Shown here one piece after another: positions 903 through 9,469 of a DNA stretch of 64,000 bases (position 1 is its first letter; the number at the start of each line of letters is the position of its first letter). The notes under the pieces were generated by a model, which saw only the letters and a list, made by a program, of their open reading frames with translations, did no database searches and was not told the origin of the DNA. The stretch is taken from assembly GCF_057098645.1 (NCBI RefSeq), contig NZ_CM169472.1, one strand, 5' to 3'. The translations under genes and the position numbers were made by a program.

Positions 903-1034
903 TTGTTGGATGCGGGCGCATTATCCGACCTGAGGGTAATGCGCCGCTCTATTAGCTATAAAAAGATGTATGACCCGGATCACGAGTGCTATTATCCGCC
1001 CCTATGCGTAGCGCATTAACCCCAGGGGCAAACA

Positions 1035-1280
1035 ATGAACCACGATATCCCATTAAAATATTTTGATATTGCCGATGAATACGCGACTGAATGCGCAGAA
1101 CCTGTCGCAGACGCAGAACGCACACCGCTGGCCCACTACTTCCAGTTACTACTCACCCGTTTGATGAACAATGAAGAGATCAGCGAAGAAGCCCAGCATG
1201 ACATGGCCGCTGAAGCGGGGATTAATTCCGCGCGCATTGATGAAATCGCAGAGTTTTTGAACCAATGGGGTAATGAGTAA
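1035..1280 (+). CDS. ymjA: small acidic protein YmjA (DUF2543-like)
   Basis: 81 aa ORF between puuP and sapA; translation recognised as YmjA. Confidence 0.75.
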
Positions 1281-1313
1281 TTATATCATTGCAGGCGCCT
1301 GGTCAGTATCGTT

Positions 1314-1344
1314 GCCCGGATAAAGCGTTCACGCCGCATCCGGC
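1314..1344. repeat. REP (repetitive extragenic palindromic) element
   Basis: gcccggataaagcgttcacgccgcatccggc is the reverse complement of the classical REP consensus GCCGGATGCGGCGTGAACGC...TTATCCGG. Confidence 0.7.
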
Positions 1345-1590
1345 TAAAAATGACGCACTACAGCCTGCTTTAATGGGTTTCTCACGATCGTACCTCTCCG
1401 TTCCTCGCTAAGTTATTCTGTGAGTTATAGTTATAGAGAAATCACGGGTACGAATGTTGAACAGATGGCGACGCCACCTGTTCAACGACCAACCACACGG
1501 CCCTCATTACGCCCCCTGAACACAAACGGTAATGGCAAATGTCATTAAATATTAGTAAGATAGCCTCTTTACATAAAATCCCTTAATATT

Positions 1591-3234
1591 ATGCGCCAGG
1601 TATTATCGTCTCTTTTGGTGATTGCTGGACTTGTGAATGGTCAGGCAATCGCCGCGCCTGAACCCACCCCGCATGCTGATATCCGCGACAGCGGTTTTGT
1701 CTATTGCGTCAGCGGGCAAGTCAACACCTTTAACCCATCCAAAGCGAGCAGTGGGTTAATTGTCGATACCCTTGCCGCCCAGTTTTATGATCGACTGCTG
1801 GATGTCGATCCGTATACCTATCGTCTGATGCCAGAACTTGCCGAAAGCTGGGAAGTGCTCGACAACGGCGCGACTTATCGCTTCCACCTGCGTCGCGATG
1901 TCCCGTTTCAAAAAACCGCCTGGTTTACTCCCACTCGCAAAATGAATGCCGATGATGTGGTGTTTACCTTCCAACGGATTTTTGACCGCAATAACCCGTG
2001 GCATAACGTCAACGGTAGTAACTTCCCCTATTTCGACAGTCTGCAATTTGCCGATAACGTTAAAAGCGTCCGCAAGCTGGATAATCATACCGTTGAGTTC
2101 CGTCTGGCTCAGCCGGATGCTTCTTTTTTGTGGCACCTCGCAACCCATTATGCTTCGGTCATGTCGGCAGAATATGCCCGGAAGTTAGAGAAAGAAGATC
2201 GCCAGGAGCAACTCGACCGTCAACCGGTCGGCACTGGACCGTATCAGTTGTCGGAATACCGCGCCGGGCAATTTATTCGCCTACAACGTCATGATGACTT
2301 CTGGCGCGGTAAACCGTTAATGCCGCAGGTGGTGGTGGATTTAGGCTCCGGCGGCACCGGACGTCTGTCGAAACTCCTGACCGGGGAATGCGACGTTCTG
2401 GCCTGGCCTGCTGCCAGCCAGCTATCCATTTTGCGTGACGACCCGCGCTTGCGTTTAACGCTGCGTCCTGGGATGAACGTCGCCTATCTGGCATTTAACA
2501 CCGCCAAACCGCCGCTAAATAATCCCGCTGTCCGCCATGCGCTGGCACTGGCGATTAATAACCAGCGCCTGATGCAATCCATCTATTATGGTACGGCTGA
2601 AACGGCGGCCTCTATTTTACCGCGCGCCTCGTGGGCCTATGACAACGAGGCTAAAATTACTGAATACAATCCGGCGAAATCGCGCGAACAGTTGAAGTCG
2701 TTGGGGCTGGAAAATTTAACGCTGAAACTGTGGGTGCCCACACGTTCGCAGGCGTGGAACCCCAGTCCACTGAAAACTGCCGAACTGATTCAGGCGGATA
2801 TGGCGCAGGTTGGCGTAAAAGTGGTGATTGTGCCGGTAGAAGGTCGCTTTCAGGAGGCGCGGTTGATGGATATGAGCCATGATCTGACGTTATCCGGTTG
2901 GGCGACGGACAGTAACGACCCGGACAGTTTCTTCCGTCCGTTACTGAGCTGCGCGGCAATTCATTCACAGACCAACCTCGCCCACTGGTGCGATCCGAAA
3001 TTCGACAGCGTGTTGCGTAAGGCGCTCTCCTCGCAGCAGCTGGCGGCGCGTATTGAAGCCTATGACGAAGCGCAGAGTATTCTGGCGCAGGAATTGCCCA
3101 TTTTGCCGCTGGCGTCGTCATTGCGTTTGCAGGCCTATCGGTACGATATCAAAGGTCTGGTGCTTAGCCCGTTTGGTAACGCCTCCTTTGCTGGGGTGTA
3201 TCGCGAGAAACAGGATGAGGTGAAAAAACCATGA
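1591..3234 (+). CDS. sapA: periplasmic substrate-binding protein of the Sap (peptide/putrescine) ABC transporter
   Basis: 547 aa with signal peptide; first gene of a five-gene ABC operon; recognised as SapA. Confidence 0.9.
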
Positions 3235-6881: not shown

Positions 6882-6918
6882 ACCTCATCCTGACAGGGGC
6901 CCCCCCTCAGGATGAGGT
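6882..6918. terminator. hairpin between convergent sapF and MFS genes (probable bidirectional terminator)
   Basis: inverted repeat acctcatcctga ... tcaggatgaggt with GC-rich loop in the 50 bp gap between the two stop codons. Confidence 0.5.
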
Positions 6919-6923
6919 ATTCA

Positions 6924-8087
6924 TTACTTTTGATTGTCGATTCTGGTGAGAGCAACCAGGAATGCCAGTGTATAACACACCGTAATTGCCAGACTCATTT
7001 TTAACAGTGTTTCTCCGCCAAATCCCGACAATGGCGCGGCTATACCGCCGAAGACAAACATGCTCATCCCCATCAACGCAGACGCCGTTCCAGATTCCTG
7101 TGTCCCTACTGCACTCATAGCCTCTGCCCCGCCAACAGTGCCGATGCCGCTACAAAATGCAATAGTGAAAAATAATGCCACCAGTGCCGGAATGGGCAAT
7201 TGTGTCCATGCGCATAAGACCGTGAGCAATGCACACAAAATTGCCGCTATCAGGCCACCTCGCAACAATGTCATCGCATTAATCCGTCGCGCCAGACGCG
7301 AAAAGATCCATGAAGCAATGATAAGTCCGATGCCGTTAAGGCCAAACACCAGGCTAAATTGCATTGGACTAAAGCCAAATTCCTTCTGCAACACGAACGA
7401 CGAAGAGCCGATATACGCAAACAAGCCTGCCAGCATAAAACTTTGAATCAGGCAAAAGCGCATAAAACGGCGGTTCTGCACCACGCTTCGTCCGGTTAAT
7501 AGCAATGATGAGCCCCTTTTATTTTCTGGCAAGGTCTCATTAATAAATAACACGCAGCCCAGCAACAATACGGCGCTAATTTCAGCCATTACCCAGAATA
7601 AAGTGCGCCAGTCAAAAGTGCTAACAATGTACCCGCCCAGCACTGGCGACAACACCGGTGCCAGGCCATTCACCGTCATTAACAGCGCAAAAAACTGGGT
7701 CAACGTTACTCCCTGATATTTGTCACGAGCAATAGAACGAGAGAGCACCGAACCACCCGCCCCCGCGATCCCTTGAATAAAACGCCAGACCACCAGCCAG
7801 TAAATATTGTTCGTTGTCGCGCACAAAATGGAAGAAACAATAAACAATAGCAACGACAAGATTAACGGACGTTTACGCCCTATTTTGTCGCTCAGAGGGC
7901 CAAATAACAGTTGTCCGACGCCAAGACCGATCAGTGATGCAGTCAGCGTTAATTGCGTTATGGTCGTGGTTGCCGCCAGTTGCTCAGACATCTCCGGCAA
8001 AGCCGGCAAATAAAGATCGGTACACATCGGGCCGATACCGGCTAAAAGACCAAGAATCAATGCCCATGAAAGAGAGACTCTAGCCAT
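6924..8087 (-). CDS. MFS transporter, Bcr/CflA-like drug-efflux subfamily
   Basis: 387 aa, about 12 predicted TM helices; N-terminal DLYLPALP-type motif; 9 bp downstream of the OMF gene on the same strand. Confidence 0.75.
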   Translation of the reverse strand: MARVSLSWALILGLLAGIGPMCTDLYLPALPEMSEQLAATTTITQLTLTASLIGLGVGQLLFGPLSDKIGRKRPLILSLLLFIVSSILCATTNNIYWLVVWRFIQGIAGAGGSVLSRSIARDKYQGVTLTQFFALLMTVNGLAPVLSPVLGGYIVSTFDWRTLFWVMAEISAVLLLGCVLFINETLPENKRGSSLLLTGRSVVQNRRFMRFCLIQSFMLAGLFAYIGSSSFVLQKEFGFSPMQFSLVFGLNGIGLIIASWIFSRLARRINAMTLLRGGLIAAILCALLTVLCAWTQLPIPALVALFFTIAFCSGIGTVGGAEAMSAVGTQESGTASALMGMSMFVFGGIAAPLSGFGGETLLKMSLAITVCYTLAFLVALTRIDNQK

Positions 8088-8095
8088 ATTATTCC

Positions 8096-9469
8096 TTACT
8101 TGAGTGATGACATGCCGCCGCCCAGCGACTGCCAGAGCGTGATTCGGTTTGTAAAATCAGTCAGTTGCAGTGCCAGTAGCTCCTGCTGTGCGCTCCACAA
8201 GCTGCGCTGCGCCGTCAACACGGTCAGGTAATCACCAACACCCGTCTGATAGCGACGCAAGCCAACATCGACCGTTTGTTGCTCAGCTTTAACATACTGG
8301 CGCTGTGCATCCAGTTGCTCTTCAAGCGTGGTCCGCCGCGCCAGTGCGTTAGCGACATCTTTAAATGCGCTCTGAACGGTTTTTTCATAGGTGGCAATGA
8401 GTCCACGCTTTTGTGCTTCTGCGTAACGAAGCTGCGCCAGATTACTTCCGCCAGTGAACAGCGGTAATGTGACCGATGGCGTAAATGACCAGATCTGCAT
8501 TCCGTGGCTGAACAACGACGACAATGCGTCACTGCCAACACCAGCGCTGGCAGTCAGCGAAATCGTCGGGAAAAAGTTAGCCCGCGCCGCGCCAATATCG
8601 GCATTGGCGCTCTTCAAATTATGTTCCGCTTCCTGGATATCCGGGCGACGCAGCAGAACGTCAGATGACACTCCCGCAGGAACCAGACTTATCATCTGTT
8701 CCGGCAGGCTTTCCAGTGTTCCCGGTAGCAAATTTTCCTCAAGCGTTGTACCTGCCAGTAAGTTCAGCGCATTTTTATCCTGCATCACTTGTGTCTGATA
8801 GCTGGCAACGCTGGCGCGCGCTTGCTGATAAACACTCATCGCCTCACTGACATCTGTCGCTGCCGCCGTGCCAACCTGTTGCTGGCGCTGGATAATTTTC
8901 AATGAGTTTTCTGCACTGGTCATCGTTTCTTTTGCCAGGGCCAGGTTGCTGTTATCGGCCGCCAGTGTCAGCCAGGCGGTGCTGATTTCAGCAATCAGCG
9001 TTAAACGGGTGTTCTGGGCTGTAAATTCACTGGCAAGCCAGGTTTCTCGCGCCGCCCGAGATAAACTCTGATTACGACCAAACAGATCTAACGTAAAACT
9101 GGACACCGTGCCGTCAGCCTCGGCAGTGGTTTCCGTACCATTCGCCAGCGAACGACTGCGGGTTGAACTTAAGGCCGCATTCACCGTCGGGAATAACGAC
9201 GCATTAGTTTGCCCATAGAGCGCCCGTGCTGAGTCAATATCAGCAATCGCTTTTTGCACATCGCGGTTACTGTTCAGTGCAATAGTCACCACCTGCTGCA
9301 ATCGGGGATCGTGGATCACCTGCTGCCAGTCATGGCTGATTGCCTTTCCCTGGCCCTGTGCTCCCGGCAAGGTCGCCGGGATTGGGGATTCAGGCGTGCT
9401 GTAGTGGGGATCGAGCGAGACACATCCCGCACTCAACAGCACCAGAAAAATAAGAGAACGACGCAACAT
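8096..9469 (-). CDS. outer-membrane efflux lipoprotein (NodT/OprM-type OMF)
   Basis: 457 aa; lipobox LSAGC near N-terminus; coiled-coil rich; follows the RND gene with a 4 bp gap. Confidence 0.8.
   Translation of the reverse strand: MLRRSLIFLVLLSAGCVSLDPHYSTPESPIPATLPGAQGQGKAISHDWQQVIHDPRLQQVVTIALNSNRDVQKAIADIDSARALYGQTNASLFPTVNAALSSTRSRSLANGTETTAEADGTVSSFTLDLFGRNQSLSRAARETWLASEFTAQNTRLTLIAEISTAWLTLAADNSNLALAKETMTSAENSLKIIQRQQQVGTAAATDVSEAMSVYQQARASVASYQTQVMQDKNALNLLAGTTLEENLLPGTLESLPEQMISLVPAGVSSDVLLRRPDIQEAEHNLKSANADIGAARANFFPTISLTASAGVGSDALSSLFSHGMQIWSFTPSVTLPLFTGGSNLAQLRYAEAQKRGLIATYEKTVQSAFKDVANALARRTTLEEQLDAQRQYVKAEQQTVDVGLRRYQTGVGDYLTVLTAQRSLWSAQQELLALQLTDFTNRITLWQSLGGGMSSLK

What the first reader, a model, noticed from the sequence alone, without database searches (positions are those of the whole stretch)
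1456..1486. Perfect 9 bp inverted repeat in the sapA leader region
gttgaacag-N13-ctgttcaac sits about 100 bp upstream of the sapA start, just downstream of a REP element. It could be a transcription-factor site or an RNA hairpin in the sapA 5' UTR. Regulation of the sap operon is not fully mapped as far as I know.
Basis: seen in the sequence. Interest (0 to 1): 0.25.

Follow-up and report, generated by a model that had tools for sequence, protein, structure and literature searches.

The report
Drifting palindrome in sapA leader
The inverted repeat upstream of E. coli sapA is real and is actually a 31-bp near-perfect palindrome in the gene's long leader, but it varies within E. coli, is eroded in sister species and shows no compensatory change, so it is most likely an ordinary hairpin without a conserved regulatory role.

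Summary
The repeat is at 1456-1486 exactly as described, and it is larger than reported. It is a 31-bp palindrome with 15-nt arms (14/15 complementary, 1 nt between them), the only one of that class in the 64-kb window; 3% of shuffles produce one.

The window is E. coli (O145-like): puuP, ymjA, a REP element, the palindrome, then sapA. One published TSS-seq entry for E. coli MG1655 (2 reads, 148-nt leader) puts the sapA start at window 1443. That places the palindrome at +14..+44 of the leader, where it folds into an isolated stem-loop (-21 kcal/mol).

- **Other genera:** no counterpart, and RNAalifold finds no consensus structure there.
- **Other Escherichia lineages:** arms are eroded to 8-12 of 15, with zero compensatory pairs.
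- **Within 5,426 E. coli genomes:** four main haplotypes. About 14% are perfect (15/15), and about 19% (the haplotype of two sampled strains I take to be phylogroup B2) carry a disrupting mismatch.

There is no Rfam match, no U-tract, no repeat family and no conserved ORF. My verdict is a drifting quasi-palindrome inherited from the Escherichia ancestor and transcribed as a passive leader hairpin. An E. coli-specific RNA role or a protein-binding role is not excluded but has no support. Interest is low. The conserved element in this leader is a different block, at 1525-1565.

The parts
1456..1486 (+). 31-bp near-perfect palindrome GTTGAACAGATGGCG-A-CGCCACCTGTTCAAC. As RNA it forms a stem-loop of 9 bp, an A.C mismatch, 4 bp and a 3-nt loop.
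1456..1470 (+). Left arm. Invariant in E. whittamii and the SCPM lineage, and semi-conserved with Citrobacter (GAATGTTGAcCAgGTcGCGA).
1472..1486 (+). Right arm, the variable half. Polymorphic at 1474 (C/T), 1477 (C/T) and 1486 (C/T) within E. coli, with 4-6 differences in the whittamii/SCPM lineages.
1443..1443 (+). Published sapA transcription start in E. coli MG1655 (148-nt leader, 2 reads), transferred to window coordinates.
   Evidence: Kim et al. 2012, PMC3415461, supplementary file 2
1426..1437 (+). Tandem -10-like hexamers TATAGT and TATAGA upstream of the mapped TSS. T1426, A1427 and A1429 are invariant and T1431 nearly invariant across 28 sequences from 5 or more genera.
1525..1565 (+). 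The most conserved block of the leader (AACGGTAATGGCAAATGTCATTAAATATTAGTAAGATAG). It contains a small palindrome/hairpin at 1531-1546 and a TAAGAT -10-like hexamer at 1556-1561. Listed for context; it is not part of the inverted repeat.
1591..3234 (+). sapA coding sequence (547 aa)
1035..1280 (+). ymjA coding sequence (81 aa, DUF2543), the upstream neighbour
1296..1345 (.). REP element between ymjA and the palindrome
   Evidence: (I2)

Best explanation
The site is a lineage-restricted quasi-palindrome with no conserved regulatory function.

**Shown:**
- It lies 13 nt downstream of the only mapped sapA TSS, so it is transcribed into the 148-nt sapA leader.
- It folds there as a self-contained stem-loop at +14..+44, which does not pair with the translation-initiation region.

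**Inferred from comparison with the E. albertii-type locus as outgroup:**
- The Escherichia ancestor already had a 13/15 palindrome, with right arm CGCCACCTGTGCAAC.
- One G-to-T change at 1482 made the outer 9 bp perfect in the lineage of E. coli and MOD1-EC7003.
- A later C-to-T change at 1477 made it 15/15 in some E. coli.
- Other single changes eroded it in the haplotype carried by strains SF-468 and MNCRE44 (which I take to be phylogroup B2, from memory), in E. albertii, in E. whittamii and in the SCPM lineage.

**Inferred mechanism:** the hairpin forms in the mRNA but is a passive passenger. At most it has a small, non-specific effect on leader stability. The partial self-complementarity came cheaply, because GTTGAAC and its reverse complement GTTCAAC differ only at the central base.
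For: - **Transcribed position:** TSS at window 1443.
- **Fold:** -21 kcal/mol, and an independent module in the fold of the whole leader.
- **Within E. coli (5,426 complete genomes):** window type 1,662-1,668; K-12 type with a G-U pair 1,713; perfect 15/15 type 745; SF-468/MNCRE44 type with a U.U mismatch plus a G-U pair 1,046.
- **Polymorphism density:** by my count on eight aligned strains, 4 variable sites in 31 nt against about 6-8% of sites in the flanks.
- **Sister lineages:** by my count on alignment A3, 8-12 of 15 arm positions remain complementary, and all departures are unpaired cells.
- **Covariation:** 0 of 14 pairs changed on both sides, 7 of 14 depart only by broken pairs, and column shuffles match or beat the observed values.
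- **Other genera:** no counterpart with up to 8 substitutions allowed, and RNAalifold on 28 sequences predicts nothing at these columns.
- **No family membership:** no Rfam hit, no U-tract terminator or sigma-70 consensus, single copy per genome.
- **Polarity:** sapA tree and the E. albertii-type locus.
Against: - A 15-nt-arm palindrome is statistically unusual (3% of shuffles).
- About 81% of E. coli genomes keep the outer 9 bp perfect, and one lineage improved it to 15/15.
- Three of the four E. coli polymorphisms are C/T changes that keep or improve pairing on one strand or the other. This is what weak selection for a hairpin would also produce.
- Lack of conservation does not exclude a young, E. 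coli-specific function.
- The TSS rests on 2 reads in one dataset. If the main promoter is the proximal TAAGAT region, the site is at about -83 to -113 and is not transcribed from it.
Confidence: 0.6

Rival explanations
1. It is an E. coli-specific functional RNA hairpin in the sapA leader. The stem-loop would modulate mRNA stability, processing or translation of sapA, for example as a binding site for an RNA-binding protein or as a polyamine-sensitive structure.
For: - It lies inside the mapped 148-nt leader.
- The fold is stable and autonomous.
- The outer stem is perfect in about 81% of E. coli genomes and was improved to 15/15 in about 14%.
- The polymorphisms at 1474 and 1486 give G-U pairs on the + strand.
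- sapA has no Shine-Dalgarno sequence, so unusual translational control is conceivable.
Against: - No covariation.
- It is eroded in four sister lineages.
- 19% of E. coli genomes carry a U.U mismatch.
- No Rfam family matches.
- The hairpin does not touch the start-codon region in the predicted fold.
- A 13-nt single-stranded 5' segment precedes it, so it would not act like an ompA-type 5'-terminal protective hairpin (established knowledge, not tested here).
Confidence: 0.2
2. It is a DNA operator for a dimeric transcription factor that controls sapA, or the weak promoter just upstream.
For: - It has palindromic symmetry.
- It sits at +14..+44 of the mapped TSS, a position from which a repressor could block elongation or initiation, and at about -97 from a putative proximal -10.
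- sapA regulation in E. coli is essentially uncharacterised.
Against: - The half-sites are not conserved in orthologous regions.
- The right half-site varies within Escherichia while the left does not.
- The palindrome runs through the centre, which is typical of a hairpin rather than of two half-sites with a free spacer.
- No TF site is reported in the searched literature.
- My comparisons from memory with the LexA, FadR, Cra, PhoP, MatP and PurR motifs gave no convincing match. These are leads, not tests.
Confidence: 0.08
3. It is a 3'-end hairpin for transcripts reading through from ymjA. Transcription from the much stronger ymjA promoter would end downstream without an intrinsic terminator, and exonucleases would trim back to this stable stem-loop.
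For: - The ymjA TSS has 94 reads against 2 for sapA.
- No intrinsic terminator is detected anywhere in 1200-1700.
- The stem-loop is stable and has no U-tract.
Against: - The REP element at 1296-1345 lies closer to ymjA and is the usual 3' stabiliser.
- The evolutionary argument is the same: no conservation and no covariation.
- In the 3'-end mapping paper I could search, neither gene occurs in the stored supplementary text. A second paper's files are not held.
Confidence: 0.08
4. It lies within a small protein-coding ORF or leader peptide: either 1420-1548 (42 aa, GTG start) or ATG 1454 (21 aa).
For: - An ORF spans the site.
- Several between-lineage differences fall on third codon positions of the 1420 frame (my reading).
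- Some Citrobacter species have an ATG-initiated ORF at the homologous place that ends in the same ...NTNGNGKCH.
Against: - The Citrobacter ATG is ACG in Escherichia and ATA in two Citrobacter species.
- In Klebsiella the ORF is only 4-8 codons long.
- MOD1-EC7003 has a 1-nt deletion in the frame.
- The SF-468/MNCRE44 allele turns codon 1486-1488 into TGA.
- The E. albertii-type and SCPM sequences stop 12 codons early.
- All of this is read.
Confidence: 0.02

Closest known systems
Quasi-palindromes (imperfect inverted repeats) in bacterial intergenic DNA, and hairpins created or perfected by mutation rather than by selection
   Same: It is a near-perfect palindrome running through its centre. 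Single substitutions move it towards or away from perfection in different lineages, and there is no compensatory pattern.
   Different: I looked for the signature of template-switch correction, meaning several clustered changes that jointly raise complementarity in one lineage. With the E. albertii-type outgroup, only single-step changes are needed.
5'-UTR stabilising stem-loops such as the ompA leader hairpin
   Same: It is a stable stem-loop near the 5' end of an mRNA leader.
   Different: It starts 13 nt from the mapped 5' end. By established knowledge, protective hairpins need to sit at or within a few nucleotides of the end. No effect on stability has been shown.
Intrinsic (Rho-independent) terminators and attenuators
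   Same: It has a G+C-containing stem-loop of comparable stability.
   Different: No U-tract follows on either strand, and the scan found none in 1200-1700.
REP/BIME extragenic palindromes
   Same: It is an intergenic palindrome, and a true REP lies 110 nt upstream.
   Different: It is single-copy per genome and unrelated to the REP consensus.

Membership tests
Intrinsic terminator | G+C-rich stem-loop | tested here: met
   13 paired positions, -21 kcal/mol on the + strand and -25.2 on the - strand
Intrinsic terminator | Run of U immediately 3' of the stem | tested here: not met
   The stem is followed by GACCAACCAC on the + strand and ATTCGTACCC on the - strand. The scan found 0 terminator-like sites in 1200-1700.
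Structured cis-regulatory leader RNA (Rfam-type) | Match to a curated covariance model | tested here: not met
   cmscan at E-values up to 10 over 900-1800 on both strands found nothing on 1456-1486.
Structured cis-regulatory leader RNA (Rfam-type) | Base pairs maintained by compensatory change in relatives | tested here: not met
   0 of 14 pairs changed on both sides, and shuffles equal or exceed the observed values. There is no consensus structure at these columns in 28 sequences.
Structured cis-regulatory leader RNA (Rfam-type) | Located in the transcribed 5' UTR | tested here: inconclusive
   One TSS-seq entry with 2 reads places it at +14..+44. No second dataset could be read.
Palindromic transcription-factor operator | Half-sites conserved in orthologous promoters | tested here: not met
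   The right arm diverges within Escherichia, and there is no counterpart in Citrobacter, Klebsiella, Salmonella or Enterobacter.
Palindromic transcription-factor operator | A protein known or shown to bind | not testable with these tools
   Literature searches found none. There is only RNA polymerase holoenzyme gSELEX binding somewhere in the spacer.
REP/BIME repeat family | Many copies per genome with a shared consensus | tested here: not met
   The median is 1 place per genome, and there is 1 match in the window with up to 3 mismatches allowed.
Template-switch (quasi-palindrome correction) product | Cluster of simultaneous changes in one arm that all raise complementarity in one lineage | tested here: not met
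   With the E. albertii-type outgroup, the E. coli lineage needs only G1482T and later C1477T. The clustered changes are in the whittamii/SCPM clade and lower complementarity.
Small ORF / leader peptide | Conserved start codon, frame and length | tested here: not met
   The start codon is lost (ACG, ATA), there is a frameshift in MOD1-EC7003, and there are premature stops in the SF-468/MNCRE44 allele, the E. albertii-type sequence, the SCPM lineage and Klebsiella.

The most novel reading that the evidence does not exclude
The hairpin is a young, E. coli-specific translational or stability element of the SD-less sapA leader. One possibility is a structure whose bulged A.C position responds to polyamines, which would link SapA synthesis to the putrescine-export role reported for SapBCDF. 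The natural alleles (perfect 15/15, A.C bulge, and the SF-468/MNCRE44 type with U.U) would then set different sapA expression levels among E. coli lineages.
Probability: 0.06. Interest if true: 0.45.

Novelty: new member of a known kind. Interest (0 to 1): 0.1.

Why it matters
It matters little as it stands. The work removes a plausible-looking candidate regulatory site from the list and gives a usable description of the ymjA-sapA region:
- a mapped but weak distal start at 1443;
- a 148-nt leader without a Shine-Dalgarno sequence;
- a genuinely conserved block at 1525-1565, which is a better target for anyone studying sapA control.

If the hairpin did prove functional, its natural allelic series across E. 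coli lineages would offer a ready-made experiment on how leader structure tunes expression.

Tried and rejected
1. **Template-switch origin in E. coli.** The right arm looked like a hot spot: 4-6 differences against whittamii/SCPM, and none in the left arm. The E. albertii-type locus showed that the E. coli right arm is close to ancestral, so I dropped the idea.

2. **Metagenome scan for alleles with a non-coli right arm.** The pattern AATGTTGAACWGATGGNGANNNNNNCVG gave 15 hits. All are unrelated chance matches in other organisms.

3. **Independent TSS and 3'-end data.**
   - Thomason 2015 is not held.
   - The Cappable-seq GTF was truncated when stored, and the coordinate prefixes I searched gave no match.
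   - Adams 2021 supplements have no occurrence of sapA or ymjA.
   - Conway 2014 and Dar & Sorek 2018 supplements are not held.
   - Mendoza-Vargas 2009 lists only a sapA primer in a supplementary primer table, not the result.
   - Sugiyama 2016 is not held.

4. **Klebsiella TSS for the homologous promoter.** It is not in the stored part of the Kim 2012 supplement.

5. **A conserved hairpin at the homologous place in Citrobacter and Klebsiella.** Small 5-6 bp stems exist, but in shifting registers and with insignificant z-scores. RNAalifold finds none.

6. **Small-ORF reading.** Rejected; see the rival explanations.

7. **Known TF motifs.** I compared LexA, FadR, Cra, PhoP, MatP/matS, PurR, Fur and Zur from memory only. 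There was no convincing match, and this was not a formal test.

8. **The promoter predicted by Shimada 2014 (ATGACA-15-TTTAAT).** It is present in K-12, but the window has a 2-bp deletion that shortens the spacer to 13, so it is unlikely to be the promoter here.

Full report
**Where we are.** The window is Escherichia coli. The ymjA-sapA spacer is 100% identical to O145 strain RM9872 and matches 5,421 of 5,426 complete E. coli genomes. On the + strand the order is as follows:

| Feature | Coordinates |
|---|---|
| puuP (3' part) | ends 902 |
| ymjA | 1035-1280 |
| REP element | about 1296-1345 |
| the reported repeat | 1456-1486 |
| sapA | 1591-3234 |
| sapB onward | after 3234 |

**The observation.** GTTGAACAG-N13-CTGTTCAAC is present at exactly 1456-1486. 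The site is a 31-bp palindrome, GTTGAACAGATGGCG-A-CGCCACCTGTTCAAC, with 14/15 complementary arms.
- A 9-bp perfect repeat with a spacer of 20 nt or less is common: about 17 places in the window against about 5 expected.
- The 15-nt-arm version is unique in the window and appears in only 3% of shuffles.
- As RNA it folds to -21 kcal/mol on the + strand (z = -4.0) and -25.2 on the - strand (z = -5.1).
- By energy alone it is ordinary: 34 other 41-nt windows on the + strand fold as well, against 9-19 in shuffles.
- It is single-copy.

**Is it transcribed?** The sigma-70 and terminator consensus scans find nothing in 1200-1700.
- Supplementary file 2 of Kim et al. 2012 (PMC3415461) lists one sapA TSS in MG1655. 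It has 2 reads and a 148-nt 5' UTR, and the upstream sequence ends ...GAGTTATAGTTATAGAGAAATC. That is window position 1443.
- The tandem hexamers TATAGT (1426-1431) and TATAGA (1432-1437) lie just upstream. T1426, A1427 and A1429 are invariant, and T1431 nearly so, in an alignment of 28 homologous regions from Escherichia, Citrobacter, Klebsiella, Raoultella, Lelliottia and others.
- On this evidence the palindrome is +14..+44 of the sapA leader. In a fold of the whole leader it is a self-contained module that does not pair with the start-codon region.
- The support is thin, and every other TSS or 3'-end dataset I tried was unavailable or silent.
- Shimada et al. 2014 (PMC3946193) report RNA polymerase holoenzyme binding in this spacer and predict ATGACA-15-TTTAAT. 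That motif exists in K-12, but the window has a 2-bp deletion in its spacer.
- A review (PMC9629497), citing Sugiyama 2016, says only that sapA has its own predicted sigma-70 promoter, separate from sapBCDF.

**Conservation across genera.** I fetched 80 sapA loci from Enterobacteriaceae. The upstream regions fall into two architectures.
- *First architecture.* In Salmonella, Enterobacter, Kluyvera, Kosakonia and others, sapA follows pspF or another gene. The upstream sequence reads ...TTGACGAC...GCAGACATTTTTAC...TAAGTGCGATACACTTTGCAG.
- *Second architecture.* Escherichia, many Citrobacter, Klebsiella, Raoultella and one Lelliottia share a different region. It contains GAGGTATAyTCrAAGT, GGTATGAAT, and a very conserved block AACGGTAATGGCAAATGTCATTAAATATTAGTAAGATAG.
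- The palindrome sits in a variable stretch of the second architecture. No locus outside Escherichia matches it even with 8 substitutions allowed.
- RNAalifold on 28 sequences predicts no structure at its columns. The only consensus hairpin is the small one at window 1531-1546, inside the conserved block.
- Per-species folds show small 5-6 bp stems near the homologous place in Citrobacter and Klebsiella, but in shifting registers and with insignificant z-scores.

**Conservation within Escherichia**. The complementarity figures are my counts on alignment A3.

| Lineage | Sequence at the site | Arm complementarity |
|---|---|---|
| window (O145) | GTTGAACAGATGGCGACGCCACCTGTTCAAC | 14/15 |
| MOD1-EC7003 | GTTGAACTGATGGAGACGCCACCTGTTCAAC | 12/15 |
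| SCPM-O-B-8794 lineage | GTTGAACAGATGGCGATACCACCAGTGCAAC | 10/15 |
| E. whittamii | GTTGAACAGATGGCGACACATCCAGTGCGAC | 8/15 |
| E. albertii-type (YmjA WP_137650746.1; sapA 88-89% identical) | GTTGAACAATCGGCGACGCCACCTGTGCAAC | 10/15 |

Counting the 14 pairs over nine Escherichia sequences gives 0 pairs with changes on both sides. Seven pairs depart only by broken cells, and column shuffles equal or exceed every measure.

**Variation inside E. coli.** Exact 35-mers searched against 5,426 complete genomes give four main haplotypes.

| Haplotype | Genomes | Feature |
|---|---|---|
| window type | 1,662-1,668 | A.C mismatch |
| K-12 type | 1,713 | CGTC, a G-U pair on the + strand |
| O157:H7 / O104:H4 type | 745 | C1477T, perfect 15/15 |
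| type of strains SF-468 and MNCRE44 | 1,046 | A1463T gives U.U; C1486T gives G-U |

- About 250 genomes carry other combinations, such as that of strain E166.
- I take SF-468 and MNCRE44 to be phylogroup B2. That assignment is from memory and was not tested here.
- No E. coli genome carries the SCPM or whittamii right arm.
- By my count on eight aligned strains, the 31 nt hold 4 polymorphic sites. That is a higher density than in the flanking leader, so there is no sign of purifying selection on the palindrome.

**History.**
- A sapA neighbour-joining tree gives ((window, K-12), MOD1), (SCPM, whittamii). The E. albertii-type locus is more distant from all of these (sapA 87-90% identical), so I used it as the outgroup.
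- By parsimony the ancestral right arm was CGCCACCTGTGCAAC, which is 13/15 complementary to the common left arm.
- G1482T made the outer 9 bp perfect in the lineage of E. coli and MOD1-EC7003. C1477T later made some E. coli perfect throughout.
- The whittamii/SCPM clade, the E. albertii-type lineage and the SF-468/MNCRE44 haplotype each lost pairs.
- This is a random walk around an old quasi-palindrome. I had suspected a multi-base template-switch event in E. coli, and the outgroup refutes it.
- The motif GTTGAAC is one central base away from its own reverse complement. Citrobacter carries TGTTGAc/TGTTGAa twice in direct orientation at the corresponding places. Partial self-complementarity was therefore cheap to acquire.

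**What it is not.**
- *Not an intrinsic terminator:* no U-tract on either strand.
- *Not a known RNA family:* no Rfam hit.
- *Not a REP-type repeat:* it is single-copy.
- *Not a conserved small ORF.* The 42-codon frame 1420-1548 loses its Citrobacter ATG (ACG or ATA elsewhere). It is frameshifted in MOD1-EC7003, and it stops early in the SF-468/MNCRE44 allele, the E. albertii-type sequence, the SCPM lineage and Klebsiella.
- *No support as an operator.* The half-sites are not conserved, and the palindrome runs through its centre. No binding protein is reported in the literature I could search.

**Verdict.**
- The placement in the sapA leader is consistent with the single mapped TSS.
- Best explanation (about 0.6): a drifting quasi-palindrome transcribed as a passive leader hairpin.
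- Rivals: an E. coli-specific functional RNA hairpin (about 0.2), a TF operator (about 0.08), a 3'-end hairpin for ymjA read-through (about 0.08), and a small ORF (about 0.02).
- Interest is low.
- The element worth a second look in this leader is the block at 1525-1565, which is conserved across at least five genera and carries the only consensus hairpin.

Noticed in passing
window 1525-1565: The block AACGGTAATGGCAAATGTCATTAAATATTAGTAAGATAG is the most conserved part of the sapA upstream region across Escherichia, Citrobacter, Klebsiella, Raoultella and Lelliottia. It contains an imperfect palindrome, AATGGCAAATGTCATT (1531-1546), which is the only RNAalifold consensus hairpin and has a few compensatory changes. 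It also contains a TAAGAT -10-like hexamer (1556-1561). It is a better candidate than the reported repeat for a sapA operator, promoter or leader element. No known motif was identified.
   Followed up: partly
loci L004-L083, the 200 nt upstream of sapA: Two unrelated architectures of the sapA upstream region exist in Enterobacteriaceae. One follows pspF or other genes (Salmonella, Enterobacter, Kluyvera and others). The other is shared by Escherichia, many Citrobacter and Klebsiella/Raoultella. Species of one genus (Citrobacter, Lelliottia) fall in both classes, which suggests replacement by recombination. Only the last roughly 45 nt before the ATG look homologous between the classes.
   Followed up: partly
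window 1566-1593: sapA has no recognisable Shine-Dalgarno sequence. An A/U-rich CCTTAAwATTATG is conserved in both upstream architectures, which suggests SD-independent initiation.
   Followed up: no
window 1281-1420: The ymjA-proximal part of the spacer in this strain is unusually divergent. Only 26 genomes are at least 99% identical over 1281-1590, and most are 90-95% identical. A 2-bp deletion relative to K-12 at about 1352 falls in the spacer of the promoter predicted by Shimada 2014.
   Followed up: partly
window 915-945: A perfect 9-bp inverted repeat, GGCGCATTA-N13-TAATGCGCC (-23.6 kcal/mol in a 41-nt window), starts 13 nt after the puuP stop codon and has no U-tract. The ymjA TSS (94 reads in Kim 2012, 31-nt leader) lies about 60 nt further on.
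   Followed up: no
window 6882-6918 and 6924-9469: A strong hairpin, ACCTCATCCTGA-CAGGGGCCCCCCC-TCAGGATGAGGT (-27 kcal/mol), lies right after sapF and before two convergent minus-strand ORFs of 387 and 457 aa. From memory, this does not look like the K-12 order (sapF, ycjD, fabI), so it may be a strain-specific insertion.
   Followed up: no
window 1620-1650: An 11-nt imperfect inverted repeat, GATTGCTGGAC/GTCAGGCAATC (-21.2 kcal/mol), lies inside the region that codes for the SapA signal peptide.
   Followed up: no
L001 and L002 annotation: RefSeq locus tags skip one number between ymjA and sapA in two genomes (RS07155 to RS07145, and RS08570 to RS08560) but not in others. A gene call in this spacer may have been made and later withdrawn.
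   Followed up: no
window 1035-1280 (ymjA): A 2026 overexpression screen (PMC12924614) reports that ymjA raises the nalidixic acid MIC more than 12-fold and the trimethoprim MIC 6-fold. The protein (DUF2543) has no known function, and among the fetched loci it was found only in Escherichia.
   Followed up: no
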